DNA from: a bacterium
Lineage (GTDB): Bacteria; Patescibacteriota; Minisyncoccia; UBA6257; JAGOQP01
Length of the DNA stretch: 64,000 nucleotides
Direction: 5' to 3'
Assembly (NCBI GenBank): GCA_021814695.1
Contig: JAKAHY010000003.1
Span: forward strand, 20,692-84,691
Every line of letters begins with the position of its first letter. The stretch's first letter is position 1. Below are positions 5,333-38,672 of the stretch, piece by piece. The position numbers and the translations under genes are program-made. The notes beneath the pieces were generated by a model. It had not been told where the DNA came from and searched no databases. It saw only the letters and a program-made list of their open reading frames with translations.

Positions 5333-5442
5333 AATATCCGCCTGGTAGGCGGATTTATTTTGGGTGCGTGGGGTTGACTTTCTTTCCGGCGCGACTAAAA
5401 TTGCTATACGAATCAACTTTATAAGTAAAATATTTAAGCGAT

Positions 5443-9962: not shown

Positions 9963-10049
9963 GGAAGGGTGCAGGAGTGGTTTAACTGGTGGTCCTGGAA
10001 AGACCATGTGCCAGAAATGGCACCGCGAGTTCGAATCTCGCCCCTTCCG
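9963..10049 (+). tRNA. tRNA-Ser (anticodon GGA), type II with a long variable arm, no encoded CCA
   Basis: Manual fold. Acceptor GGAAGGG/CCCUUCC, D-stem CAG/CUG, anticodon stem UGGUC/GACCA with loop CUGGAAA, variable stem GUGCC/GGCAC, T-arm GCGAG-UUCGAAU-CUCGC, discriminator G. Confidence 0.85.
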
Positions 10050-10053
10050 CTTT

Positions 10054-10141: not shown

Positions 10142-10156
10142 ATAAATTAAAATTGA

Positions 10157-10186
10157 GAATCCCTGCCTACCGGTAGGCAGGGATTC
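10157..10186. repeat. Perfect 30-nt palindrome GAATCCCTGCCTACCGGTAGGCAGGGATTC
   Basis: Direct reading. It lies at the distal end of the tRNA-fragment cluster. Confidence 0.8.
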
Positions 10187-10267
10187 TAAGGAGGAGCGAA
10201 GCGACCACGTGAGATTCCCTCATCTTACTCATGTGATTTTTTATTTCAAAATATTTAATGTTATAAT

Positions 10268-26221: not shown

Positions 26222-29200
26222 ATGCCCCAAAAGATCTCAGATTATATAACCGAGGTATCAGATAAATATAAAACTGGCCGTGCCGGAGAGCATGCTTATA
26301 GGCCCACTTTTGAAAAGCTCATTAAGTCGATAGATCCAAAACTTTCGATCATTAACGATCCGAAACGTACAGAACACGGAGCGCCTGATTTTATATTTGT
26401 AAGGGGAGACTTGATAGCGGGCTATGTTGAGACAAAAGATATAGATGAGGATCTTGATAAGACTGAAAAATCAGAACAGATAGAAAGATATTTAGGTTAT
26501 TCAAATCTAATTCTCACTAATTATCTCGAATTTCGTTTTTTTAGAAACGGAGAACATTATGGCGAGCATATTATTATAGGGAAGATAATTGACGGAGTCG
26601 TTAAAATTCAAGAAGATCAGATCAGTTCTTTGGAAGATGTTATTTTTGATTTTTTATCTGCTAAGCCAGAAGCTATAAAAAGTGGAATTCGTCTGGCAAA
26701 AATTATGGGAGGTAAGGCGCGCCGTATAAGAGATAGCGTAAAACAATTTCTGACTAAAGAATCGGAAGATAATCAAGAACTCTCGCGCGTTTACGAAACA
26801 ATAAAAAAACTTCTGGTTCACGATTTAACTTCCGAATCATTTGCGGATATGTACGCTCAGACTCTTGTTTATGGGCTTTTTGTGGCTCGTTATTATGACG
26901 AATCTCCGGATAATTTTACGCGTCAAGAAGCGCGTGATCTTATACCGGCATCAAATCCATTTCTGCGTCATTTCTTTGACCATATTGCTGGTCCGGATTT
27001 TGATAAACGATTAGCTTATATAGTAAATGAACTTTGTGAGGTTTTCTCGGTCGCGGATGTTCAAGTTCTCATGAGTCAGTATTTTAAGCAAGAGGATTTG
27101 TGGGGGAAGATACATAAAGGCCCTGATCCGGTTATCCATTTTTATGAGGATTTTTTAAAAGAATATGATTCTGAATTGCGTAAAAAAATGGGAGCATTTT
27201 ATACTCCATTACCAGTTGTAGATTTTATTGTCCGGTCAGTTGATTATCTCCTCAAAAAAGAGTTTAACTTATCCGGGGGCCTTGCTGATGCTACTAAGAC
27301 AGGGTTAGTGCACAAAGTTCAAATTCTTGATCCAGCCGTAGGGACGGGAACATTTATTAGTGAAATTATTCGTACTATCTATCAAAGTTTTTCTGGGCAA
27401 GAAGGACGTTGGCCGACTTATGTTTATCATGATCTTTTGCCTCGTTTACATGGCTTTGAATTAATGATGGCGCCTTACACCATTGCCCACCTTAAATTTA
27501 GTATGATGTTAAAGGAGACGGGTTTTAAACACTTTAACAATAGTAGGCTTGGTATCTATCTGACAAATTCTCTAGAGAATGGAGACGCTCAAGATAGTTT
27601 ATTTACAGGATTTGGTTTTGCCGAGAGTATTGCGGAGGAATCCAAAGAGGCGTCAAAAATCAAGAATGAAAAACCAATCATGGTTGTTGTTGGTAACCCG
27701 CCATATAGCATTAGCTCCTCGAATAAGGGTGAGTGGATTCTAAATCTTATTAAAGACTACAAAAAAGACTTGGGCGAAAGAAAAATTAATCTAGATGATG
27801 ACTATATAAAATTTATTCGTTTTGCAGAACATTTTATAGAAAAAAATGGAAGTGGTATTGTAGCTATGATAACCAATAATTCATTTATTGATGGAATTAC
27901 TCATCGTCAAATGAGGAAGCATTTATTGGAAACATTCGACAATGTTTATATTCTTAATTTGCACGGCAATTCTAAGAAAAAAGAAAAGTGTCCAGACGGT
28001 AGTAAAGATGAGAATGTTTTTGATATTCAACAAGGCGTATCTATTTCAATTTTTGTAAGAAAAGAAGGCAAAAAACAAGAATTAGGAAAAGTATTCCACT
28101 CTGAATTATACGGCAGACGTCAAGATAAGTTTGAGAAACTTAATTCTTTTGATTTAGAAAACATAAAATGGCAAAGACTTAATACCATAGAGCCTTATTA
28201 TTTCTTTATCCCAAAAGATTTTAGTTTGAGTGATTCTTATGATAACTTTTTCTCTATAACAGATCTGTTCAAAATTTATTCAGCAGGGATAAAAACTAAA
28301 GTTGATAACATATCAATAGACTTTGAAAGAGAATCACTCGGGAAAAGAGTTGAAGACATACTTACAAATAAATATTCATTGCAAGAAGTCATTAAAAAAT
28401 TTAGCTTGAATCCAAAAACTACCTGGGAATACAACAATGTTCTGAGGGCGAGTTTTAACGATAAAGTTTTGTCTTTCTATGATTATAGGCCGTTTGATAG
28501 AAGATTTATCTACTATGATAAAAATTTTCTTTCCAGAAGTAGATCGCAAGTAATGGATAATTTTTTTAATAAAGATAATATAGGCTTAGAAACTTCACGT
28601 ATGGGTGATTACATTTTTATTTCTAAAAATATTTCAGACGAGCATTTTGTTTCAGATAATTCATTTAAATTTCCACTTTATCTGTACCTAGATAATGGTC
28701 AGCAAATATCCAATCTTAAAAATGAGATCGTGGGAAAAATTACAGGAATTACTGGCAAAGCAGCTCCCATAGATATTCTTGATTATATTTATGCAGTCCT
28801 CCATTCGCCTAATTATAGAAAAAAATATGAGGAATTTTTAAAAATTGACTTCCCGCGGATACCATATCCAAAAGACAGAAAAACCTTTGAGAAATTAGTG
28901 AGTTTTGGAAAAGAGTTGAGAGAACTGCATCTTTTAGAATCTACAAAGCTTAAAAACTTTATCACGACATTTCCAGAATCAGAAAGTGATCTCGTTGAGT
29001 CAAAATATCCAAAATATAAGGATGGGAATGTTTATATAAATAGTACTCAATATTTTGGTAATGTTTCAGAAGTTATCTGGAATTTCTACATAGGAGGATA
29101 TCAACCTGCTCAAAAATGGCTTAAAGATCGCCAAGGCCGAAAACTTTCAAATGAAGACATTGAACACTATCAAAAGATGATTGTAGCTTTGATGGAGACA

Positions 29201-29242
29201 GACGGGGTTATAAAAGAAATTGATAAAATTTATGTTCAATAA
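26222..29242 (+). CDS. Type IIG restriction-modification enzyme (MmeI-like PD-(D/E)XK endonuclease fused to a gamma-class N6-adenine methyltransferase and a target-recognition region)
   Basis: N-terminal PD…ExK (APDFIF…GYVETKD), MTase motif I (ILDPAVGTGTF), motif IV (VVVGNPPYS). 1006 aa. Confidence 0.8.
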   Translation: MPQKISDYITEVSDKYKTGRAGEHAYRPTFEKLIKSIDPKLSIINDPKRTEHGAPDFIFVRGDLIAGYVETKDIDEDLDKTEKSEQIERYLGYSNLILTNYLEFRFFRNGEHYGEHIIIGKIIDGVVKIQEDQISSLEDVIFDFLSAKPEAIKSGIRLAKIMGGKARRIRDSVKQFLTKESEDNQELSRVYETIKKLLVHDLTSESFADMYAQTLVYGLFVARYYDESPDNFTRQEARDLIPASNPFLRHFFDHIAGPDFDKRLAYIVNELCEVFSVADVQVLMSQYFKQEDLWGKIHKGPDPVIHFYEDFLKEYDSELRKKMGAFYTPLPVVDFIVRSVDYLLKKEFNLSGGLADATKTGLVHKVQILDPAVGTGTFISEIIRTIYQSFSGQEGRWPTYVYHDLLPRLHGFELMMAPYTIAHLKFSMMLKETGFKHFNNSRLGIYLTNSLENGDAQDSLFTGFGFAESIAEESKEASKIKNEKPIMVVVGNPPYSISSSNKGEWILNLIKDYKKDLGERKINLDDDYIKFIRFAEHFIEKNGSGIVAMITNNSFIDGITHRQMRKHLLETFDNVYILNLHGNSKKKEKCPDGSKDENVFDIQQGVSISIFVRKEGKKQELGKVFHSELYGRRQDKFEKLNSFDLENIKWQRLNTIEPYYFFIPKDFSLSDSYDNFFSITDLFKIYSAGIKTKVDNISIDFERESLGKRVEDILTNKYSLQEVIKKFSLNPKTTWEYNNVLRASFNDKVLSFYDYRPFDRRFIYYDKNFLSRSRSQVMDNFFNKDNIGLETSRMGDYIFISKNISDEHFVSDNSFKFPLYLYLDNGQQISNLKNEIVGKITGITGKAAPIDILDYIYAVLHSPNYRKKYEEFLKIDFPRIPYPKDRKTFEKLVSFGKELRELHLLESTKLKNFITTFPESESDLVESKYPKYKDGNVYINSTQYFGNVSEVIWNFYIGGYQPAQKWLKDRQGRKLSNEDIEHYQKMIVALMETDGVIKEIDKIYVQ

Positions 29243-29294: not shown

Positions 29295-31454
29295 ATGAAA
29301 AAAATACAATTAAAATTAGCAAATTGCTACGGAATTAAGAAATTAGAAAGAGATTTTGATTTTTCGAATAACGGTACTTATGTAATTTATGCTCCCAATG
29401 GAGTTATGAAAACTTCATTTGCGAAGACATTTAAAGACTTAAGTTTAGGATTAAATTCTAAAGATTTGATTTTTCCAGAAATAGAGACGATCCGTGAGAT
29501 TAATAAAGAGAACAATACTAATTTGTCTAAAGAGGAAGTTTTTGTTGTAGAGCCATATAATGAGGATTTTAATTCAGAAAAAATATCTACCCTTTTGGTT
29601 AATAAAGAATTGAAAGGCAGATATGATAAAATCCATTTAAAAATTGATGAAGAAAAGAGCGGGTTACTAAAAGAATTAAAAAACTTATCTGGATTTCGAG
29701 ATGATATCGAAGAAGAAATTTCTCAAGCTTTTACAAGTGAGGACGATAGATTATTTGATTCTCTAGAAAGGGTGGAAAAAGAAGTTATGGATATTTCAGA
29801 ACCTGTGTATTCTGATATTTCTTATAAAGAGATTTTCAATGAAAAGGTTCTAAATTTTCTGATGACTAAGGATTTCAAAGAAAAAATTGAGCAATATATT
29901 AAAAAATATGACGAATTAATTGAAAGTTCAAAATATTTTAAAAAAGGTATATTTAATCATAATAATGCATCAGTTATAGCCAAGAGTTTAGTAGATAATG
30001 GTTTCTTTAAAGCACAACATTCCATTTCTTTAAATACAAGAGAAAGTAAAAATGAAATTTACACCAAAGAAGAACTTGAAAAAGTCATTGATGAAGAAAA
30101 AAACGCTATATTGAATAACCCTGATTTGGTGAAAGTTTTTGAAGAGTTGGACAGCAAATTAAAAGCTAATAAAGAATTGCGTGATTTCAGAGATTATTTG
30201 TTAAATAATCCAAAAATTTTACCAGAACTGAAAAATCTTGATAGTTTTCGACAAAAATTATGGGTATCCTATTTTAAGAGTCAAAAAGATTTATACGAGA
30301 GTTTCTTAAAGGAATACCATTCTGGAAAAAGTGAATTGGACAAAATAATAGAACAAGCTAAAACAGAAGCAACGCACTGGATGGATGTGATAGACATCTT
30401 TAATGAAAGGTTTTCAGTTCCGTTTAAGCTTAGTATAAAAAATCAGGGTGATGTTATTTTAAAACGAGATGTTCCTAGTATCGCTTTTATATTTAAAGAT
30501 TCAAATGGCGAAGTTCCTGTAGAAAAATTAAATTTACTCCAAGTATTAAGTAGCGGAGAGAAACGTGCTCTGTATATCTTAAACATAATTTTTGAAGTTC
30601 AAGCAAGAAAAGAAGAAAATCAGGAAACCCTATTTATTATTGATGATATAGCAGATTCTTTTGACTATAAAAATAAATACGCGATTGTTGAATATTTGAA
30701 AGATATTTCGGAAGAAACAAATTTTTATCAAATAATTTTAACTCATAACTTCGATTTTTTTAGAACCGTTCAGAGCAGGTTTGTTCCTTATGATAATTGT
30801 TTAATGGTTGAAAAAACAACTGAAGAATTAAAAATAGTAAAAGCAGATTATATAAAAAATCCATTCAAATACTGGATGAATCATTTAGATGATGATAAAA
30901 AATTAATAGCATCAATTCCGTTTGTAAGAAATCTTATTGAATACACAAAAGACACAAACGATGATGATTTTTTGAAATTAACATCATTATTACACGTTAA
31001 ATCAAATTCCGATTCTATTTTTAAAAGCGATTTACAAAATATTTATAAAAGTATATTTCCTAACTTATCACTAACCTTAATAGGTAAAGATGAAAAGGTT
31101 ATTAATTTAATTTTTAATTTAGCAGATACCTGTTTAACTGCGACCGTAGGCATAAATCTAGAAAATAAGATTCTTCTTTCTATTGCTATTAGATTGGTAG
31201 CGGAAAAATTTATTTTAAGTAAGATAACTGATAAAAGTGAGATTGTCGGAAAACAAACAAGGAAACTTTTTGAAAGATTTAGAAATGAATTTAATAAAGA
31301 TAATTTTGAACAAGAAAATATTAAAATACTAGAGCAAGTTAATCTTATGACTCCAGAAAATATACACTTTAATTCATTTATGTATGAGCCTATTTTAGAT
31401 ATGTCGGATGATCATTTGAAAAACTTATATAACGAAGTGAAAAAATTAAAATAA
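29295..31454 (+). CDS. SMC/OLD-like ABC ATPase (719 aa) with a degenerate Walker A and a ~390-aa helical insert between Walker A and the signature motif
   Basis: The N-terminus follows the OLD/AAA_21 pattern (MKKIQLKLANCYGIKKLE…YAPNGVMKTSFAKT). Signature LSSGEKRALYIL, Walker B/D-loop LFIIDDIADSFD, H-loop ILTHN. Confidence 0.65.
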   Translation: MKKIQLKLANCYGIKKLERDFDFSNNGTYVIYAPNGVMKTSFAKTFKDLSLGLNSKDLIFPEIETIREINKENNTNLSKEEVFVVEPYNEDFNSEKISTLLVNKELKGRYDKIHLKIDEEKSGLLKELKNLSGFRDDIEEEISQAFTSEDDRLFDSLERVEKEVMDISEPVYSDISYKEIFNEKVLNFLMTKDFKEKIEQYIKKYDELIESSKYFKKGIFNHNNASVIAKSLVDNGFFKAQHSISLNTRESKNEIYTKEELEKVIDEEKNAILNNPDLVKVFEELDSKLKANKELRDFRDYLLNNPKILPELKNLDSFRQKLWVSYFKSQKDLYESFLKEYHSGKSELDKIIEQAKTEATHWMDVIDIFNERFSVPFKLSIKNQGDVILKRDVPSIAFIFKDSNGEVPVEKLNLLQVLSSGEKRALYILNIIFEVQARKEENQETLFIIDDIADSFDYKNKYAIVEYLKDISEETNFYQIILTHNFDFFRTVQSRFVPYDNCLMVEKTTEELKIVKADYIKNPFKYWMNHLDDDKKLIASIPFVRNLIEYTKDTNDDDFLKLTSLLHVKSNSDSIFKSDLQNIYKSIFPNLSLTLIGKDEKVINLIFNLADTCLTATVGINLENKILLSIAIRLVAEKFILSKITDKSEIVGKQTRKLFERFRNEFNKDNFEQENIKILEQVNLMTPENIHFNSFMYEPILDMSDDHLKNLYNEVKKLK

Positions 31455-31470
31455 ATAATTAAAAGATTTT

Positions 31471-32880
31471 ATGACCATAATGATTTTACTAATAATAAAT
31501 ACTTTTGGAATCGCTCTTTTGACATTTCTGTTTTTTAAGAATAAACAATCTGATAATGCCGGCCAAATAACAAAAGCTGTTGAGATTTTATTTGATAGAA
31601 TGGATAAGGCTTTTAAGGAAGAAATGTCTCTAAATAGAAAAGAGTCGGCAGACTCAGAAAAAAGATTACGCGAAGAAATTTCTAGCTCATTTAAGGGATT
31701 TGGAGATTCGCTTGATAAAAGAATGTCCGAACTTGCTAGTACTCAAAATAAGAATTTTGAAGGATTTTCTATAAAACTTACAGAATTAATTGATAAGAAT
31801 GATACAAAAATAGAAAAAGTCAGAGAAACAGTTGAAAGAAAGCTTGAAAATATACAAAAAGACAACGGCGAAAAATTAGAAATGATGAGGCAGACAGTAG
31901 ACGAGAAGCTCCAATCTACCTTAGAGAAGAGACTGGGAGAATCATTCAGGCAAGTAAGCGACAAACTGGATTCTGTCCATGTCGGGCTTGGAGAAATGAG
32001 AAATCTGGCGTCTGACGTTGGTGGTCTAAAAAAAGTTTTAACAAATGTAAAAACACGCGGTATCTGGGGTGAGGCACAACTGGGTGCTTTACTGGACCAG
32101 GTATTATCTCCGGAACAGTATGCAAGTAACGTTGCAGTTAAGCGTGATGGCAGAGAAAGAGTAGAATATGCTATCAAATTACCAGGCACTAAAGAAGACG
32201 GAAGTGATCCCGTGTGGTTGCCTATAGATTCAAAATTTCCTCAAGAAGATTATGATCGTCTAATTAGCGCATACGAACAAGCAGATGCCAATGCAATTGA
32301 TGTAGCGTCTAAACAACTGGAGCTTAGGATTCGCAATGAAGCCAAAAGTATCAACGAAAAATATATTGATCCACCCAATACAACAGATTTTGCCATATTA
32401 TTTTTACCATATGAAAGTTTATATGCAGAGGTTATTAGGCGCCCCGGTCTCTGCGAAACAATTCAAAGAAGCTACAGGGTTACAATAACGTGTCCGTCAA
32501 CATTGGGTGCTTTATTAACCAGTCTTCAAATGGGATTTAAAACTCTTGCTATACAAAAGAGATCAAGTGAAGTGTGGGAAGTGCTCGGAGCAGTAAAAAC
32601 GCAATTTGGTAAATTTTCTAACTTGCTCGAAAAAACTCAAAGACAATTGAAAACCGTAGCTGGTACAATTGAAGAAGCTACTAAAAAAACCAAGACAATT
32701 GAGGGTAAACTAAGAAAAGTACAACAATTACCAGAATCTTTATCAATTAAGGTACTAAAAGGAGTGGAAGAGTTGGAAAATAGCCAGGAGGATGCAGAAG
32801 GAATAGAAAAGACGTCAATTTCTGAGACGCAAGAAGATTTTTCAGATAAAGAGATTAGATCAGAAGACCTACCGTTTTAG
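31471..32880 (+). CDS. rmuC: DNA recombination protein RmuC, second full-length paralog (469 aa)
   Basis: TM helix, coiled coil, RmuC core DFAILFLPYESLYAEVIRRPGL…RVTITCPSTLGALLTSLQMGF. Confidence 0.85.
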   Translation: MTIMILLIINTFGIALLTFLFFKNKQSDNAGQITKAVEILFDRMDKAFKEEMSLNRKESADSEKRLREEISSSFKGFGDSLDKRMSELASTQNKNFEGFSIKLTELIDKNDTKIEKVRETVERKLENIQKDNGEKLEMMRQTVDEKLQSTLEKRLGESFRQVSDKLDSVHVGLGEMRNLASDVGGLKKVLTNVKTRGIWGEAQLGALLDQVLSPEQYASNVAVKRDGRERVEYAIKLPGTKEDGSDPVWLPIDSKFPQEDYDRLISAYEQADANAIDVASKQLELRIRNEAKSINEKYIDPPNTTDFAILFLPYESLYAEVIRRPGLCETIQRSYRVTITCPSTLGALLTSLQMGFKTLAIQKRSSEVWEVLGAVKTQFGKFSNLLEKTQRQLKTVAGTIEEATKKTKTIEGKLRKVQQLPESLSIKVLKGVEELENSQEDAEGIEKTSISETQEDFSDKEIRSEDLPF

Positions 32881-35800
32881 GTATCATTCTTCAATAAATC
32901 CTCCTCAAAACTTTTGATTCCGTTGAAGCCCATTTCTGCGTATTTTGATATGTCCGGAAAGTCGAGATTTATTATTTTCTTATAAACAATGCCTATTAAG
33001 GCCTTTAGGCGCTCAACTTCTTGCGGATCTATGTCCAGTGTTAGCCCAACGAGTTCTTTATGAAGGGGTTCTATAAAGCTTATAACTCCTTTATTTACCG
33101 TATATTTATTTCCGAATGCTTTGGAGTTTTCTATAAGGAGTTTATAGAATATTAACTGATTACGGTTGCGCCAGGCCTTAATTTTTGCGTACTGGTCGGT
33201 TGGGGACCAGCTATCTATTGGTTTTCCGGTTTTAAAATCCTCAACTATCATTTTGTTCCCTTCGATTTTTATTTTATCTATTCTTCCTGTTATGGGCGTT
33301 CCGTCTATAATTGCCCCCTCCTTTTTGAAATCAAATTCACTCTTATCGTCAATTGAAAAAGATTTCTTCTTCTGATTATAAAAGTTTTCAATTGCTTTCT
33401 GTCCTCTTTGCAGTAGGAGATCAAAATCCTTTTGGTTGAGCCGTCCGTTTTTTAGGGATTCTTCAAACCAAATTAACACCTCTTTAGTCGGAGGTAGTTT
33501 TTTATTATTTTTTAGGTAGTTGTATGTGCGTTTGATAGTTTCATGAGCGGCCGATCCAAGAATGCCACTTGGGGTCTTTGGTTCAGGAAATAAAAGCAGA
33601 TTTTTTTCAAAGAAAGTTGCTGGTCCGCCATCAACAACATTTAAGAAATTCTGTAAATGAGTAACGTTGAGTTTATAGTCGTCCAAAATTGGTTTTAAAA
33701 GCGCTTTTTCTTCGGCTACAAAAGGGGGAGTGTGCAACATATTTAATTGATCAACTAGCATCTCTTCCGGAACTCGATTAATATCTTTTATTTCAATAAA
33801 TTCTGGTTCAAAAGATTTTAAAGCACCTTCCGGGGATATAAATCCAAGGCGAGAAGATTCTTTTCCCTTGTTGTCATATTTATATGATGTCAGATATAAC
33901 AATCTTTTGGCTCTGGTGATGGCAACATAAAAAAGTCGGAGTTGATCATCTATATTGTCTCCTGCTGGGCTGATGGGTAAATTCGATGGCAGGGTTATAT
34001 TATTTCTACCTCGTCCGGTTCCGGCCCAGGAATCTTCCTGGCAATTTAAAACAAATACGGCTTCAAATTCCAATCCTTTGGCTTTGTGTGCGCTCATCAA
34101 TTGGACCGCTTCGTTGGAATTAATAAAAGGACTGGTGTTATTTATGGGGAGGTTGTTTTTTGTGTGGATGTCAAAAAATTCAATCATCTCTCCAATATTT
34201 ACTCTTTTACCACGTCTATATTCTCTTAGGGATTCAATAAATGATTTTAATGAAGATAGAAAATTTAAATAATCTGCTCTGTGTTTGGTAAATTTGTCCT
34301 TGTTAAAATAATAAGATCTAAATGGACTAAACATATCATTGCTACCCGCAGTTTCTTCCTCGGTTTTTTCATCTGAAAGGATTTGCTGGGGTCCACCAAT
34401 GAGCTCCTGGAGAACTTCTTCTGCCGTTGCGTAAGTTGCTAGTCCTCCCAAGTTAATGAAAAATTCCGCTATGTCACTTAGCTGTCCTCCTAATTCTTTC
34501 ATAACCATAAGCCACGGCTTGTTTTCTTTTATAGCCTTTATAGAAAGCTCCCAAATCATTGATCGTTTTATATTCCAGAACGGATAGTTTAATATCTCCG
34601 GTAAAAAGTTATCGGCATCGTCCGATTTTTTCATTATAGAGTCAACAAATTTGGCCATCGTGATAAGTTCCAAAATGTGCGGTTCCTGCAAAACATTTTG
34701 CTGGCGTTCGTAAGCAATTGGAATTTTAGCCATGTGGAAATAAGGAGCTAGAGATTCAAGGTCTTTATGTTCGCGAGCGATAACGGCAATTTCTTTGGGG
34801 GATATGCCTTGTTCAATCAATTTTTTTATTTCGGTTGTTATCCAATGATATTCTATTTCTTTGGAAGCAAATTCTTTTGAATGGATTTTTCCATCTTTTA
34901 TATTTTTATTACTGGCGATCAGCTCTTTTTTTAATTCTGGAAAGATATTTTCAAGACGATTAACACCTTTTTTAATTATAAGTTTTGCTGCGTCTAATAT
35001 GTCTTGAGTTGATCGATAATTTTCTTTAAGAACTATTAGCTCTGGTTTGCGGTATGTGTTTTGAAAACCGCTGACGTTGGTAATTTCTGCCCCCTGAAAT
35101 TTGAAAATTGCCTGGTCATCGTCTCCGACAACCATTATATTGGGTCTGCCTTCGTTGACAGGGTTATCAGTTAGAAGCTTCAATAACCTCATTTGGGCAT
35201 CATTGGTGTCTTGAAATTCATCCACAAGAATATATTGGTAGCGTTCCTGTAAGTCCAGTTTTACGTTTAAATTGTTTTCGAGCACGGAGATTGCGTCCAG
35301 GATCATATCGTCAAAATCATAATATTCGTTTTCTCTCAACTTCTTCATATATTTTTCGTATATGTCGGCTAACGCCTCCATCCTTTCGATGTTTAAAAGA
35401 TCGGTGATATGCCTGAATCCATCCTCGCCTTTTTCTGTCCATTCATTTTTCCATTCTGTTACTGGGGATGTTGCATTCAAATCCTCGGCGTTTTTGACGG
35501 CTTGGGCGAGTGAGTACGCTAGTGATTGAGCAAAAGGTCTAAAGAAGCCCGGTAATTTTTTAGATTTAAAAGCGCCGATCTCCTTGGCGGCTGAAATTGC
35601 GGCAGGATATAATTTTTTTGAGATCCTGTCATTAAAAACAGATTTGATTATTGGGTCTGCATGTTCTATTTCTTTTTTATTTTCGGCTAATATAGTTTTG
35701 AATTCATCCGGAGTAAGCCCGGCTTTTTTAAGATATTCGATCGCCTTTTTTGTTTTATATAAGTAAGTAAATTGACCATTGAACTCTGATCGCAGGGGAT

Positions 35801-36203
35801 TATCATATGGAAGTTCGGTAAATATTTTTTCTAATATTTCTGTCTGTGTTATCTGGTCAGCAGGAAGAAGAGTGGCGCCATTATAAAAATATTCCGGATA
35901 ATAATTTATTATTTCAACTCCAAAACTATGAAAAGTATGGATAGAAACTCTGTATGCGTCATGGCCGATAAGACCAGCTAATCGGTTGCGCATATTGAAT
36001 GCGGCGGCGTCGGTAAATGTTAAACACAATATATTTCCTGGGGAGGCGTCAGTATTTTTTAAAATATTAGCCACACGCAAGCTCAGAAGCTCGGTTTTTC
36101 CGGATCCCGGCCCGGCTATAACCATCACGGGGCCATCTATGGTATCAACGGCCTGTTTTTGTTGTTTATTTAAATTTTTAATCCTATCTTCAAATGTGCT
36201 CAT
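32877..36203 (-). CDS. UvrD/PcrA-like superfamily-1 helicase fused to a C-terminal RecB-family PD-(D/E)XK nuclease domain (1108 aa)
   Basis: Helicase motifs: AGPGSGKT, DEFQDTN, VGDDDQAIFKFQGA, NYRST. Nuclease motif: GRIDKIKIEGNKMIVEDFKTGK. Confidence 0.85.
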   Translation of the reverse strand: MSTFEDRIKNLNKQQKQAVDTIDGPVMVIAGPGSGKTELLSLRVANILKNTDASPGNILCLTFTDAAAFNMRNRLAGLIGHDAYRVSIHTFHSFGVEIINYYPEYFYNGATLLPADQITQTEILEKIFTELPYDNPLRSEFNGQFTYLYKTKKAIEYLKKAGLTPDEFKTILAENKKEIEHADPIIKSVFNDRISKKLYPAAISAAKEIGAFKSKKLPGFFRPFAQSLAYSLAQAVKNAEDLNATSPVTEWKNEWTEKGEDGFRHITDLLNIERMEALADIYEKYMKKLRENEYYDFDDMILDAISVLENNLNVKLDLQERYQYILVDEFQDTNDAQMRLLKLLTDNPVNEGRPNIMVVGDDDQAIFKFQGAEITNVSGFQNTYRKPELIVLKENYRSTQDILDAAKLIIKKGVNRLENIFPELKKELIASNKNIKDGKIHSKEFASKEIEYHWITTEIKKLIEQGISPKEIAVIAREHKDLESLAPYFHMAKIPIAYERQQNVLQEPHILELITMAKFVDSIMKKSDDADNFLPEILNYPFWNIKRSMIWELSIKAIKENKPWLMVMKELGGQLSDIAEFFINLGGLATYATAEEVLQELIGGPQQILSDEKTEEETAGSNDMFSPFRSYYFNKDKFTKHRADYLNFLSSLKSFIESLREYRRGKRVNIGEMIEFFDIHTKNNLPINNTSPFINSNEAVQLMSAHKAKGLEFEAVFVLNCQEDSWAGTGRGRNNITLPSNLPISPAGDNIDDQLRLFYVAITRAKRLLYLTSYKYDNKGKESSRLGFISPEGALKSFEPEFIEIKDINRVPEEMLVDQLNMLHTPPFVAEEKALLKPILDDYKLNVTHLQNFLNVVDGGPATFFEKNLLLFPEPKTPSGILGSAAHETIKRTYNYLKNNKKLPPTKEVLIWFEESLKNGRLNQKDFDLLLQRGQKAIENFYNQKKKSFSIDDKSEFDFKKEGAIIDGTPITGRIDKIKIEGNKMIVEDFKTGKPIDSWSPTDQYAKIKAWRNRNQLIFYKLLIENSKAFGNKYTVNKGVISFIEPLHKELVGLTLDIDPQEVERLKALIGIVYKKIINLDFPDISKYAEMGFNGIKSFEEDLLKNDT

Positions 36204-36422
36204 AGTTAAAACAATACTTCAAATTTTAGATCACGTCTATTGTGAGTATGATATAATAATACAAATGTTTCATCTGCCACCAAATTTTGCTTGGGAATTG
36301 ATAAAGAACATGGTCTTTGTTTGGTGGTTGCTAATTAAAGCATTCTGGCCGTTTTTGGTTTTATTAGCCCTTTTCTACGTTCTTGATTATTGGATTAGTA
36401 ATAAAAAAAGAAAAAATAAAAA

Positions 36423-36896
36423 ATGAATGATATTGAATTTTCTAGAGATTTAATAAAAGGTAAAATTGCGGAAGTCGTGTTTGAGCAAATGTTTAGATCC
36501 TCAGGGAAATATACGATACTGCATTCCGGTTACGAATATACACTTCCTGAACTTGCACAGTATCAGCATATAGCGGAAGTGAAAGCCGTTATCGAAAATA
36601 TAAGAAATGCTCCTGATTTTGTTTTAATATCTCAGGATAAAAAAGAAGTGCATTTAGTAGAGGTAAAATATCGTACACATAGACGTCCAAATGAATTAAA
36701 GGAAATCGCGGAGGATGTGTTAAAAATCTGGAATCCATGTTGGCTATTTGTTGCATCTCCAGACGGTTTCTTTTTTGAACCCTGTAATACTGTTGTAAAT
36801 AATAATGGTGAGATGGGATTGCTTTATTCAAAATGGGTCAACGAAGACATTCAGCGAGAATTTCTTAAATTATTGAACGAATTTGAAAAAAAATAA
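36423..36896 (+). CDS. Small PD-(D/E)XK nuclease-fold protein (YraN/UPF0102-like)
   Basis: GKIAEVVFE … APDFVLIS…VHLVEVKYR (E / PD / EVK). Confidence 0.55.
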   Translation: MNDIEFSRDLIKGKIAEVVFEQMFRSSGKYTILHSGYEYTLPELAQYQHIAEVKAVIENIRNAPDFVLISQDKKEVHLVEVKYRTHRRPNELKEIAEDVLKIWNPCWLFVASPDGFFFEPCNTVVNNNGEMGLLYSKWVNEDIQREFLKLLNEFEKK

Positions 36897-37149
36897 ACCC
36901 ATGAGCAAGGATGAAGAGTTGATATATGAAAATTGCCCCATATGTCTTAAAACGGGATTTGATGGGCACCTGGCTTATCTGGCAATATTGCATTACCAGA
37001 TTGAAGCCGGAAAAGAAGAAGGCGTCCCGATTGACAAGGTTTTCGATAAAACTCAGGCACTCAAGCATTCTATTAATAAAGAAAATGTGCATGAAAATAT
37101 CATCATTTCTCTGAGGCGGCTTGAAAAAATTGAAAAAAATAATAAATAA
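36883..37149 (+). CDS. Hypothetical small protein (88 aa; alternative start 36901)
   Basis: ORF overlapping the preceding stop. Terminator AATCCGCCCAAGGCGGATT plus T-run. Confidence 0.4.
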   Translation: MKKNKPMSKDEELIYENCPICLKTGFDGHLAYLAILHYQIEAGKEEGVPIDKVFDKTQALKHSINKENVHENIIISLRRLEKIEKNNK

Positions 37150-37247
37150 TCCGCCCAAGGCGGATTTTGTGTAGACAAATTGACGCTATAATCTTTTTAA
37201 TGTAGCTTGAATTCAGCAACTATATAAAACCAAAGGAGGGGCGACAG

Positions 37248-37703
37248 ATGCCTAAAAAAATCCAATGCTATCTAGCCGGTTCGTTTATTCCATTTGGAGG
37301 TTGCGAAGATTGGCGCGATTATGTTGAGTCGAATTGTCTGTGCGGAAAAATCTCATTTTATGATCCCAGATCAGATACTGAGCAGGAATCTATAGCATCT
37401 TTTACGTCTCAGGATTTGAAAGGGGTAGGGTCGAGTGATGTCATCTTCTGTTTTATGGATAAGAACGCGGGTGAGGTCGGATCTGCTGCAGAATGCGGAT
37501 TTGGCCTTGCTAAAAATCGGATGGTAATTCTTTGTATTGGGGAGGACGTTGACTTCCCTCATCCGTTTATGTTGGGGCTTGCGCGTCGAGTGATTATCGG
37601 ACTTGATGCCGGAATAGAATATCTCAAAGGTCTTGCTGATTATGGAATTGAGAATGAATTTGCTGTTGCCTACGATTTTTTGAAAGATAAGAGCCAAAAA
37701 TAA
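37248..37703 (+). CDS. Nucleoside 2-deoxyribosyltransferase-like (NDT/Rcl-fold) protein
   Basis: CYLAGSFIPFGG motif and flavodoxin-like layout. Near-identical terminator TTCCGCCCAAGGCGGATT plus T-run. Confidence 0.5.
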   Translation: MPKKIQCYLAGSFIPFGGCEDWRDYVESNCLCGKISFYDPRSDTEQESIASFTSQDLKGVGSSDVIFCFMDKNAGEVGSAAECGFGLAKNRMVILCIGEDVDFPHPFMLGLARRVIIGLDAGIEYLKGLADYGIENEFAVAYDFLKDKSQK

Positions 37704-37722
37704 TTCCGCCCAAGGCGGATTT

Positions 37723-37920
37723 TTGTTGTATAATAAACTCATGAGCAATAAATATCATAGCGGGGGAGCGAGTGCGGTCTACGGCCTGGGGTTTGTCGGC
37801 GCGGCTATATATTTCATCGGCCACGCGGCAACTTTCTGGCTGGGAGTTTTAGGCTTTCTTAAAGCCCTTGTCTGGCCGGCATACGTCGTCTACTACGCCC
37901 TCCAAGTTCTGGTAAAATAA
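37723..37920 (+). CDS. Small membrane protein (65 aa)
   Basis: Two hydrophobic helices. Confidence 0.4.
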   Translation: MLYNKLMSNKYHSGGASAVYGLGFVGAAIYFIGHAATFWLGVLGFLKALVWPAYVVYYALQVLVK

Positions 37921-37970
37921 TTCCATTACAGACATTCCAATCCCGATATATCGGGATTGGAATGTCGTAA

Positions 37971-38672
37971 GTGAAGAAAAATAAAAAAATGCGAACGGAT
38001 AAAAAAATATTTACAATCGTTCTGCTGGTTTTGGGATTGGCTTGGGCCGGAATCACCAGCGCCCATCAGCCCAGGATTGAATTTAATTCCAATCCGACAA
38101 TCGACAATCCCGTTCCAATTTCCAATCCGGGAGTTTCTCAGGCATTTTACGGCGATCTTAAGGGTAGTCCCCAGTACTACGAAATCAAACTTGATAGCCC
38201 TTTAGATTTTTATTTTGGTGTTTTGGTTCCGGATGTTCCGGGAATCGGGAAAAATGTTTCGGCCGGGCTTATCATAGAAAATTCGCCAAAAAGTTCGTAT
38301 GCCGCTTTTCTGGACGCCTCCAGGTCTGACTGGAATATATTTTACGAGGAATTTGCAGGAGATAATTATTTTTTTGGACCCGATACCACAATAAATCTTC
38401 CGGCGGGAAATTATCTGATCAAGGTATTTAATCCTGACAATGTCGGAAAATATGTTTTAGTTGTCGGAAAGGAAGAAGTCTTTCCTCCAAGTGAATGGCT
38501 GAGTGCGGCAATAAAATTGCCTTTGCTAAAAACCCAGTTTTTTGAAAAACCGATATGGTCGTTATGGGAAGGAAAAATCGGAAAATATCTGGTTATTGGG
38601 TATCTGATATTTATTATTCTGGTTATTGGCGCAATTTATCTAATTGTAAAAAAATTAGTTGCAAGAAAATGA
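37971..38672 (+). CDS. Secreted hypothetical protein with a C-terminal TM anchor (233 aa)
   Basis: Signal peptide plus C-terminal hydrophobic helix. Confidence 0.5.
   Translation: MKKNKKMRTDKKIFTIVLLVLGLAWAGITSAHQPRIEFNSNPTIDNPVPISNPGVSQAFYGDLKGSPQYYEIKLDSPLDFYFGVLVPDVPGIGKNVSAGLIIENSPKSSYAAFLDASRSDWNIFYEEFAGDNYFFGPDTTINLPAGNYLIKVFNPDNVGKYVLVVGKEEVFPPSEWLSAAIKLPLLKTQFFEKPIWSLWEGKIGKYLVIGYLIFIILVIGAIYLIVKKLVARK

What the first reader, a model, noticed from the sequence alone, without database searches (positions are those of the whole stretch)
36423..37703. YraN-like PD-(D/E)XK mini-nuclease and NDT/Rcl-fold protein with duplicated terminators at the island edge
A 157-aa protein with an E / PD / EVK arrangement, an 88-aa Cys-containing protein and a 151-aa YLAG-motif (nucleoside deoxyribosyltransferase / nucleotide-hydrolase fold) protein follow the helicase gene. 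The last two genes are each followed by an almost identical terminator (ATCCGCCCAAGGCGGATT), which points to a local cassette duplication. NDT/Rcl-like nucleotide-processing domains are recurring accessory components of anti-phage systems.
Basis: partly seen in the sequence, partly recalled or inferred. Interest (0 to 1): 0.5.

Follow-up and report, generated by a model that had tools for sequence, protein, structure and literature searches.

The report
Three unrelated small genes, twin terminators
At the edge of a low-GC island in a Patescibacteria genome sit three unrelated small genes: an unnamed but very conserved nuclease, an orphan ORF and a rare nucleoside-transferase-fold enzyme; they do not form a system with each other or with the neighbouring helicase.

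Summary
The three ORFs, the E/PD/EVK and YLAG motifs, and two copies of TCCGCCCAAGGCGGATTTT at the stop codons are all present.

The "cassette duplication / anti-phage accessory module" reading is not supported.
- The repeat is only about 29 nt and the flanking genes are unrelated.
- In 35 other Patescibacteria loci with full-length p157 homologues, none carries the 82-aa ORF or NDT151; one has a weak helicase match 4.6 kb away.
- NDT151 has host-like GC (42%) and its own ribosome-binding site. Its nearest relatives sit by NDK/HAD, a class II ribonucleotide reductase or DUF4406, not defence genes.

The most interesting piece is p157. It founds an unannotated family seen almost only in Patescibacteria (363+ clusters, 45-80% identity, invariant E17/D65/E80/K82). 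It is solitary, GC-poor relative to its flanks, and in an estimated third of loci lies next to restriction-modification, OLD-family or recombinase genes. Its substrate and role are unknown.

Overall this is mostly ordinary, with one family worth an assay.

The parts
36265..36426 (+). tm53: a 53-aa hydrophobic small ORF whose stop overlaps the p157 start (ATGA). It is hypothetical and found only in this species.
   Evidence: Public gene call. Singleton 90% cluster. Not found upstream of p157 homologues elsewhere. GC 30.9%.
36423..36896 (+). p157: a solitary PD-(D/E)XK-fold nuclease, founding member of an unannotated family seen almost only in Patescibacteria.
36901..37149 (+). p82: an orphan 82-aa ORF (88 aa from the TTG at 36883) with CxxC...H...H spacing. 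Function unknown; reality as a gene unproven.
   Evidence: Gene call. Singleton cluster. No family hit. No relative in IMG/VR, GenBank phages or 39 related loci. Ends exactly at terminator 1.
37148..37170 (+). Terminator 1: AATCCGCC-CAA-GGCGGATT followed by a T-run, straight after the p82 stop codon. It closes the tm53-p157-p82 unit and coincides with the GC step.
   Evidence: -13 kcal/mol, z -3.9; GC data.
37248..37703 (+). NDT151: a divergent protein with the nucleoside 2-deoxyribosyltransferase fold. It is monocistronic, with a strong AAAGGAGG ribosome-binding site 8 nt upstream of the ATG.
37703..37727 (+). Terminator 2: TCCGCC-CAA-GGCGGA followed by a T-run, 1 nt after the NDT151 stop codon. 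It is a near-identical copy of terminator 1.
   Evidence: -11 kcal/mol. Both copies are conserved in a second strain, L003.

Best explanation
The interval holds two independent transcription units, not one system.

Unit 1 is tm53-p157-p82, closed by terminator 1. It is the GC-poor right end of a variable island that also carries a type IIG restriction-modification (RM) enzyme, a PDC-S46 homologue, RmuC and a UvrD-type helicase-nuclease.

p157 is a small metal-dependent endonuclease of the PD-(D/E)XK superfamily. It has an Hjc-like catalytic set (E17 on the first helix, D65, E80, K82). It also has a family-specific, nearly invariant helical insert (GYEYTLPELAQYQH) and a C-terminal extension.

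p157 works without a fixed partner. Across Patescibacteria it is a solitary gene, is usually GC-poorer than its surroundings, and can occur twice in one genome. By my estimate, in about a third of loci it lies next to RM, OLD-family, Endonuc_Holl or recombinase genes. My best guess (inferred, not shown) is a stand-alone nucleic-acid endonuclease that belongs to the flexible, conflict-related gene pool. Its strong sequence constraint would come from a specific, conserved substrate or structure that it recognises.

Unit 2 is NDT151, with its own ribosome-binding site and terminator 2. It has host-like composition and the nucleoside 2-deoxyribosyltransferase fold. It most likely breaks or transfers the N-glycosidic bond of a (deoxy)nucleoside or nucleotide through a covalent sugar-Glu82 intermediate, and serves nucleotide salvage in an organism that depends on scavenged nucleotides.

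The two terminators are ordinary intrinsic terminators. They share recent ancestry through a roughly 29-nt duplication, gene conversion or recombination joint at the island edge. They are not the trace of a duplicated gene cassette.
For: Shown:
- p157 fold and active site.
- No conserved neighbour in 35-36 other loci, plus four further contigs.
- Defence or mobile-type neighbours of p157 homologues: an OLD-family nuclease adjacent in L008, L010 and L027; MmeI 6 nt upstream in L017; a type I S subunit 25 nt upstream in L007; Endonuc_Holl adjacent in L021, L028 and L032; serine recombinases, ParB and HEPN_AbiU2 in one JGI contig.
- Housekeeping neighbours in other loci: TrxB-like, TyrRS/TrpRS, guanylate kinase/SSB/ATP synthase.
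- Gene GC below locus GC in 28 of 35 loci, 39.7 vs 44.3%, Wilcoxon p=1e-5.
- Two copies in one MAG (L009 and L024).
- Absent from IMG/VR, GenBank phages and PLSDB plasmids.
- NDT151 fold, catalytic Glu and small family. Composition step between p82 and NDT151.
- Contexts of NDT151 relatives: divergent NDK plus an overlapping HAD hydrolase (L052); DUF4406 (L051); a class II ribonucleotide reductase (RNR) two genes away (L055). Distant relatives sit in phage-like contigs with RNR, MazG and methylases.
- The terminator repeat is limited to about 29 nt. A third terminator with the same 7-bp stem but another loop follows an unrelated gene at 5336.

Inferred: metal dependence, the substrate and the biological role of p157; the substrate of NDT151; the origin of the repeat.
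Against: - p157 is as conserved as core enzymes. A 546-aa housekeeping-type protein of the window is 70% identical to its L021 homologue, against 66% for p157 in the same locus. Its GC also tracks host GC (r=0.75). Both fit long residence and a housekeeping role better than a fast-evolving defence gene.
- Most loci show no defence neighbour.
- The estimate of about one third has no background control. It rests on crude ORF calls and on family counts, not on a per-locus tally.
- No biochemical data exist for any member of either family.
- NDT151 contexts are few (about 8) and not uniform.
- The word-indexed and pattern-based searches miss divergent homologues, so rarity and taxonomic restriction may be overstated.
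Confidence: 0.6

Rival explanations
1. One reading: p157, p82 and NDT151 are accessory parts of an anti-phage system built around the neighbouring helicase-nuclease, and the module grew by duplication of a cassette.
For: All of them lie at the end of an island that carries a type IIG RM enzyme and a full-length PDC-S46 homologue. The helicase scores against GajB models. The terminators are near-identical.
Against: No co-occurrence of p157 with p82 or NDT151 in 35 loci, and only one weak (28%) helicase match, 4.6 kb away in L019. None of the three proteins matches a PADLOC model. NDT151 has host-like GC and sits behind a terminator. The repeat covers about 29 nt only. The GajB hits are generic UvrD-domain hits; the protein also scores against PcrA, Rep and AddA models.
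Confidence: 0.07
2. p157 is a housekeeping DNA-repair or recombination nuclease, for example an Hjc-type junction resolvase or structure-specific endonuclease, in the Patescibacteria that carry it.
Against: Only 39 loci were found among 185,579 GTDB species representatives, although the scan was limited to exact peptide patterns. Two copies in one MAG. No syntenic position. GC below the flanks in 28 of 35 loci. Frequent RM, OLD or recombinase neighbours. No match to the Hjc or Endonuc_Holl Pfam models, and hhalign probability of 4% against adjacent Endonuc_Holl proteins.
Confidence: 0.25
3. NDT151 is an inserted gene cassette. The 555-bp unit (intergenic region + NDT151 + terminator) was inserted at a pre-existing terminator, which explains the flanking 29-nt direct repeats.
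For: The two repeat copies bracket exactly the intergenic region plus the gene. The gene belongs to a very small family, with 17 clusters at E<=1e-10 among 1.84 billion representatives. The terminator sequence occurs in none of the 59 other loci fetched (L007-L065), including those with NDT151 relatives.
Against: NDT151 has the host's GC. No empty site was found, because no close relative with synteny was available. A third terminator with the same stem elsewhere (5336) shows that this stem recurs in the genome. No recombinase lies nearby.
Confidence: 0.15
4. p157 is a selfish or addictive element, such as a free-standing homing endonuclease or a toxin-like nuclease, rather than a cellular function.
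Against: It is not inside an intron or intein in any locus examined. No antitoxin-like conserved partner. Very strong purifying selection on the whole protein is unusual for homing endonucleases.
Confidence: 0.1

Closest known systems
Archaeal Holliday junction resolvase Hjc (PDB 1gef, 2wcw, 1ob8)
   Different: p157 is about 35 aa longer, with a conserved two-helix insert (GYEYTLPELAQYQH) and a C-terminal beta-hairpin plus helices. It matches no Hjc or Endonuc_Holl Pfam model. It is seen almost only in Patescibacteria. Junction cleavage is untested.
Influenza PA-N and bunyavirus cap-snatching endonucleases (PDB 5w3i, 4cgx, 7ewu)
   Different: 4-13% sequence identity. H49, my guess at a counterpart of the PA-N metal-binding His (no residue-level superposition was available), is not conserved in divergent members. 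The BFVD matches are weak, with TM <= 0.47. Nothing indicates an RNA substrate.
YraN / UPF0102 (PF02021; PDB 3fov)
   Same: Similar linear motif logic: G-x3-E on helix 1 and a VEVK-x-R strand. Small stand-alone protein.
Nucleoside 2-deoxyribosyltransferases and PF15891 'Nuc_deoxyri_tr2' (PDB 7o62, 7m5h, 6evs, 1f8x)
   Different: 14-20% identity. PF05014 is below its cut-off (23 vs 28.8 bits). The family-specific motifs DWRD and DPRxDxxQ, plus several conserved Arg residues, hint at a phosphorylated substrate (this is an inference). The family is small, with 82 representative clusters.
YtoQ of Bacillus subtilis (PDB 8of6)
   Different: YtoQ has Asp where this family has the invariant Glu (alignment). 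The function of YtoQ is itself unknown, and no paper found addresses it.

Membership tests
PD-(D/E)XK nuclease superfamily (p157) | Alpha-beta-beta-beta-alpha-beta core fold | tested here: met
PD-(D/E)XK nuclease superfamily (p157) | Catalytic E ... (P)D ... (D/E)xK residues conserved | tested here: met
   E17, P64, D65, E80 and K82 are invariant in 34 sequences, down to 44% identity.
PD-(D/E)XK nuclease superfamily (p157) | Metal-dependent phosphodiester cleavage | not testable with these tools
   Needs a biochemical assay.
YraN / UPF0102 (p157) | Match to the family model PF02021 | tested here: not met
   Not listed at E<=1. The only weak hits are TnsA_N (E 0.042) and VRR_NUC (E 0.14).
YraN / UPF0102 (p157) | Closest structural neighbour is a UPF0102 protein | tested here: not met
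Hjc / Endonuc_Holl resolvases (p157) | Match to the family models (PF01870, PF10107) | tested here: not met
   No Pfam hit. hhalign against three adjacent PF10107 proteins gives 4% probability, although the PD/EVK motifs do align.
Hjc / Endonuc_Holl resolvases (p157) | Dimeric, cleaves four-way junctions | not testable with these tools
   No oligomer prediction or assay was available.
Known anti-phage defence systems in PADLOC (p157, p82, NDT151) | Match to a defence-protein model | tested here: not met
   No PADLOC family at E<=0.01 for any of the three proteins.
Known anti-phage defence systems in PADLOC (p157, p82, NDT151) | Conserved co-occurrence with the neighbouring helicase-nuclease or with each other | tested here: not met
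   In 35 loci with a full-length p157 homologue, none has p82 or NDT151. One (L019) has a 28% helicase match 4.6 kb away.
Nucleoside 2-deoxyribosyltransferase-like superfamily (NDT151) | Match to the family models | tested here: met
   PF15891 scores 30.0 bits at a cut-off of 30, which is borderline. PF05014 scores 23 against a cut-off of 28.8 and is not met. The family profile hits the solved NDT 6evs at 2.1e-8.
Nucleoside 2-deoxyribosyltransferase-like superfamily (NDT151) | Rossmann-like NDT fold | tested here: met
Nucleoside 2-deoxyribosyltransferase-like superfamily (NDT151) | Catalytic nucleophile Glu | tested here: met
   E82 is invariant in 30 sequences and aligns with the Glu of 'GTAWELG' in 6evs.
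Nucleoside 2-deoxyribosyltransferase-like superfamily (NDT151) | Transferase or hydrolase activity on (deoxy)nucleosides or nucleotides | not testable with these tools
   Needs an enzyme assay.
LOG / cytokinin riboside 5'-monophosphate phosphoribohydrolase (NDT151) | Match to the LOG family model, with LOG proteins as closest structures | tested here: not met
Rcl / DNPH1 nucleotide N-hydrolases (NDT151) | Sequence-profile relatedness | tested here: inconclusive
Intrinsic (Rho-independent) terminators | GC-rich hairpin followed by a U-run just after a stop codon | tested here: met
   Stems of 6-8 bp with 5 GC pairs, a 3-nt loop and a T-run, placed 0-1 nt after TAA.
Intrinsic (Rho-independent) terminators | Actual termination of transcription | not testable with these tools
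   Needs Term-seq or RNA-seq.

The most novel reading that the evidence does not exclude
The p157 family is a so-far unrecognised nuclease of the flexible genome, seen almost only in Patescibacteria. It would be either a single-gene defence effector or a shared accessory nuclease recruited by RM and OLD-type systems. Its unusually strong sequence constraint would reflect recognition of a specific conserved nucleic-acid structure.
Probability: 0.2. Interest if true: 0.55.

Novelty: new member of a known kind. Interest (0 to 1): 0.3.

Why it matters
Patescibacteria (CPR) genomes are tiny and largely unannotated, and families specific to them are the main gap in understanding these episymbionts.

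p157 defines a compact nuclease family with no entry in any library searched here. It is as conserved as core enzymes yet patchy and positionally mobile. That makes it a cheap and well-defined target for biochemical work: 157 aa, a confident model and four obvious mutants.

NDT151 adds a rare branch to the deoxyribosyltransferase superfamily. That superfamily is of interest for nucleotide salvage and for biocatalysis.

For the genome scan itself, the practical result is negative. This interval should not be scored as part of the neighbouring defence system, and identical terminators alone are not evidence of a duplicated cassette.

Tried and rejected
- Conserved operon partners of p157. tblastn of 15 window proteins, and all-against-all clustering of ORFs in 39 GTDB loci, found no fixed neighbour. 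The small ORFs tm53, p82 and p59 were sought with relaxed short-query tblastn and not found.
- p157 as a phage or plasmid gene. No relative in IMG/VR, INPHARED phages or PLSDB. BFVD gave only generic weak fold matches.
- Sequence-level link of p157 to solved structures. Nothing below E=0.3.
- p157 as a paralogue of the adjacent Endonuc_Holl proteins. hhalign probability 4%.
- A PA-N-like His ligand at H49. The residue is not conserved in divergent members.
- The terminator as a widespread repeat. No copy with up to 3 mismatches in any of the 59 other loci (L007-L065), and only two copies in the window. The rest of the 335-kb contig could not be read.
- Known RNA families in 36000-38300. Nothing near a gathering score.
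- Context of NDT151 relatives. A three-sequence alignment gave 8 loci.
- The afdb50 fold library was not available.
- Literature. YtoQ papers say nothing on its function, and PDC-S46 is not mentioned in the library.
- Purifying selection on p82 from strain comparison. Uninformative, because the second strain is identical over p82.

Full report
**Source and setting**

The window is part of contig DAIENI010000001.1 of the Patescibacteria MAG GCA_027341185.1. The same arrangement occurs in several near-identical assemblies. The window averages 41.5% GC.

A GC-poor stretch runs from about 26.2 to 37.15 kb. It carries:
- a type IIG/ISP restriction-modification enzyme (26222-29242, 34% GC);
- a full-length homologue of the PADLOC candidate PDC-S46 (29295-31454, 26.7% GC, 936 bits);
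- RmuC (31471-32880);
- on the minus strand, a 1108-aa UvrD-type helicase with a C-terminal PD-(D/E)XK domain (32877-36203).

The finding covers the genes that diverge from that helicase.

**Check of the observation**

All three ORFs exist at the stated coordinates. Public gene calls start the middle one at ATG 36901, giving 82 aa instead of 88. They add a 53-aa hydrophobic ORF (36265-36426) whose stop overlaps the start of the 157-aa gene. The E / PD / EVK and YLAG motifs are there.

The 19-mer TCCGCCCAAGGCGGATTTT occurs exactly twice, at 37150 and 37705, with 0.02 matches expected by chance. Each copy begins 0-1 nt after a TAA stop. Each folds as a GC-rich hairpin followed by a U-run, at -13 and -11 kcal/mol. 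The helicase, however, is on the other strand.

**The 157-aa protein (p157)**

It has no significant Pfam, NCBIfam, PHROG or PADLOC family. The only hints are sub-threshold TnsA_N and VRR_NUC hits over the PD...EVK segment.

It nevertheless has 363 homologous clusters. The best 120 are 62-80% identical. Of the 13 that carry a source name, 11 are from Patescibacteria lineages or are unspecific, one is labelled Bacteroidetes, and one is annotated YlxM.

A scan of GTDB species representatives returned 39 loci, from Paceibacteria, Wolfebacteria, Adlerbacteria, Magasanikbacteria, Doudnabacteria, Uhrbacteria, Microgenomates and others. One short contig labelled Bacteroidetes is probably mis-binned (my inference).

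In 34 sequences, down to 44% identity, these residues are invariant: L10, K12, G13, E17, F20, E21, M23, G36, Y37, E38, P64, D65, E80, K82, F109 and F116. That set includes the full E-D-E-K catalytic set.

The family profile finds no solved structure by sequence.

**Does p157 belong to a system?**

No fixed partner was found. In 35 other loci with a full-length homologue, tblastn finds neither the 82-aa ORF nor the 151-aa protein. It finds only one weak helicase match, 4.6 kb away. Clustering of all flanking ORFs gives no neighbour family present in more than 7 loci, and none in a fixed position. The small ORFs around p157 in the window are not found elsewhere.

The neighbours are a mixture. 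Defence or mobile-type neighbours recur:
- an OLD-family ATPase-TOPRIM nuclease directly adjacent in L008, L010 and L027;
- MmeI 6 nt upstream in L017;
- a type I specificity subunit 25 nt upstream in L007;
- a 57%-identical relative of the window's type IIG enzyme two genes upstream in L027;
- Endonuc_Holl proteins adjacent in L021, L028 and L032;
- a DinG-like helicase in L009;
- two serine recombinases, ParB and HEPN_AbiU2 in a JGI contig.

Other loci are plainly housekeeping: thioredoxin-reductase-like, TyrRS/TrpRS, uridine kinase, guanylate kinase/SSB/ATP synthase.

Further properties:
- The gene is GC-poorer than its locus in 28 of 35 cases (39.7 vs 44.3%, p=1e-5), yet its GC follows that of the host (r=0.75).
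- One MAG carries two copies (L009 and L024).
- It was not found in IMG/VR, GenBank phages or plasmids.
- Its conservation is on a par with a core enzyme. A 546-aa protein of the window is 70% identical to its L021 homologue, where p157 is 66%.

This picture, a solitary, patchy, positionally mobile but strongly constrained small nuclease, fits a stand-alone enzyme of the flexible genome better than a component of the adjacent helicase. It does not settle whether the role is defence, repair or something else. I rank defence/conflict first (about 0.4), repair/resolvase second (about 0.25-0.3), and selfish element or RNA processing lower.

**The 82/88-aa ORF (p82)**

It is a singleton in the 15-billion-protein collection. 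It matches no family and has no relative in IMG/VR, phages or the related loci. It has C12-x2-C15-x7-H23-x7-H31, which does not fit a classical zinc-finger spacing (read from the sequence).

Its only support as a gene is the gene call and the terminator placed exactly at its stop. The second strain is identical here, so selection could not be measured.

**The 151-aa protein (NDT151)**

- It reaches the PF15891 cut-off exactly, at 30.0 bits.
- A filter-free HMMER search of 1.84 billion representatives finds only 82 clusters at E<=1e-3 and 17 at E<=1e-10. The best is 48% identical.
- G11, D56 and E82 are invariant. Y8, W22, P40, Q46 and G78 are nearly so.
- The family profile hits solved deoxyribosyltransferases at 2e-8, and E82 aligns with their nucleophile Glu. 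YtoQ is also hit.

So it has the NDT fold, is not a LOG protein, and is not an orthologue of any characterised enzyme.

Composition (42.3% GC), its own AAAGGAGG site, and its position after a terminator put it outside the island as a separate unit.

The nearest relatives (41-51% identity) lie in varied chromosomal contexts:
- next to a divergent NDK and an overlapping HAD hydrolase (L052);
- after a DUF4406 protein (L051);
- two genes from a class II ribonucleotide reductase, with an ADP-ribosylglycohydrolase nearby (L055);
- among unrelated genes (L053, L057).

Relatives at about 30% identity are in phage-like contigs with ribonucleotide reductase, MazG and DNA methylases. None is in a recognisable defence operon.

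It is established knowledge that CPR bacteria generally lack de novo nucleotide synthesis (my own knowledge, not a tool result). Together with these contexts, a salvage role is the most economical reading. The conserved Arg residues and the DPRxDxxQ motif hint at a phosphorylated substrate; this is an inference.

**The terminators**

The similarity is about 29 nt and ends there. The genes upstream of the two copies are unrelated. A third terminator at 5336 follows an unrelated 350-aa ORF. It uses the same 7-bp stem (ATCCGCC/GGCGGAT) with a different loop.

The exact sequence is absent from all other loci fetched, including those with NDT151 relatives, which have their own different terminators. 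Both copies are kept in a second strain.

Two identical hairpins with identical loops are unlikely to be independent. A short duplication, a gene conversion or a recombination joint is likely. Because the copies bracket the intergenic region plus NDT151, insertion of that 555-bp unit at a pre-existing terminator is possible (about 0.15). However, the gene's host-like GC, and the lack of an empty site to compare with, leave this open. 'Cassette duplication' in the sense of duplicated genes is not supported.

**Verdict**

The functional framing as helicase accessories, an anti-phage NDT domain and a duplicated cassette does not survive comparison with other genomes. The interval holds two independent units.

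The one item of real interest is the p157 family: unannotated, seen almost only in Patescibacteria, strongly conserved, with an intact nuclease site and an unresolved role.

**Limits**
- The large word-indexed search and the pattern-based locus scans miss divergent relatives.
- ORF calling in the related loci was crude.
- The estimate of about a third of loci with defence or mobile-type neighbours is my own, made from family counts and a subset of individually scanned neighbours, and has no background control.
- p82 could not be searched in the large database.
- The AFDB fold library was unavailable.

Noticed in passing
window 37909-37966 (palindrome 37931-37966), between the 59-aa ORF (stop at 37920) and the 233-aa ORF (start at 37971): This is a perfect 36-nt palindrome (RNA hairpin -31 kcal/mol, z -8.5). 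Against a second strain (L003, GCA_027423305.1), 18 of the 19 differences in about 15 kb fall inside this 58-nt stretch. That strain has a different hairpin whose two arms changed together, i.e. compensatory changes. Neither arm occurs elsewhere in the window, and no Rfam family matches. This looks like replacement of a segment or a hypervariable hairpin; it is unexplained.
   Followed up: partly
window 29295-31454 (+): A 719-aa ABC/SMC-like ATPase matches the PADLOC candidate PDC-S46 end to end (936 bits) and phrog_38705 (763 bits). At 26.7% GC it is the most atypical gene in the island. The paper library does not mention PDC-S46.
   Followed up: partly
L008 818-2575, L010 6524-8146, L027 4255-5892: In three loci an OLD-family nuclease (AAA_15 plus OLD-like TOPRIM) lies directly next to the p157 homologue on the same strand, in both gene orders and without a GajB-type helicase. 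In L027 it is preceded by a type IIG enzyme 57% identical to the window's. This may be a two-gene association or only shared island residence.
   Followed up: partly
L021 6495-6947, L028 6492-7040, L032 2059-2487: A membrane-anchored Endonuc_Holl (PF10107) protein lies adjacent to the p157 homologue in three loci. That places two different small PD-(D/E)XK nucleases side by side. Profile comparison aligns their PD/EVK motifs but is not significant.
   Followed up: partly
L009 and L024 (two contigs of MAG MFD03726.bin.1.80): One MAG carries two p157 paralogues, 77% and 64% identical to the window protein.
   Followed up: no
window 5336-5354: A third terminator has the same stem as the twin terminators (ATCCGCC/GGCGGAT) but a different loop. 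It sits 3 nt after the stop of an unrelated 350-aa ORF, which suggests a recurrent terminator type in this genome.
   Followed up: partly
window 10156-10187: A perfect 32-nt palindrome (AGAATCCCTGCCTACC/GGTAGGCAGGGATTCT) lies about 100 nt downstream of the only tRNA gene in the window (tRNA-Ser, 9963-10050).
   Followed up: no
L047 / L048 and L050: Distant (about 30% identity) relatives of the 151-aa protein sit in phage-like, single-strand gene arrays. These carry a class II ribonucleotide reductase, MazG, an RNA ligase (RLIG1), a radical SAM enzyme and N6/N4 methylases, i.e. a nucleotide-metabolism or modification module.
   Followed up: no
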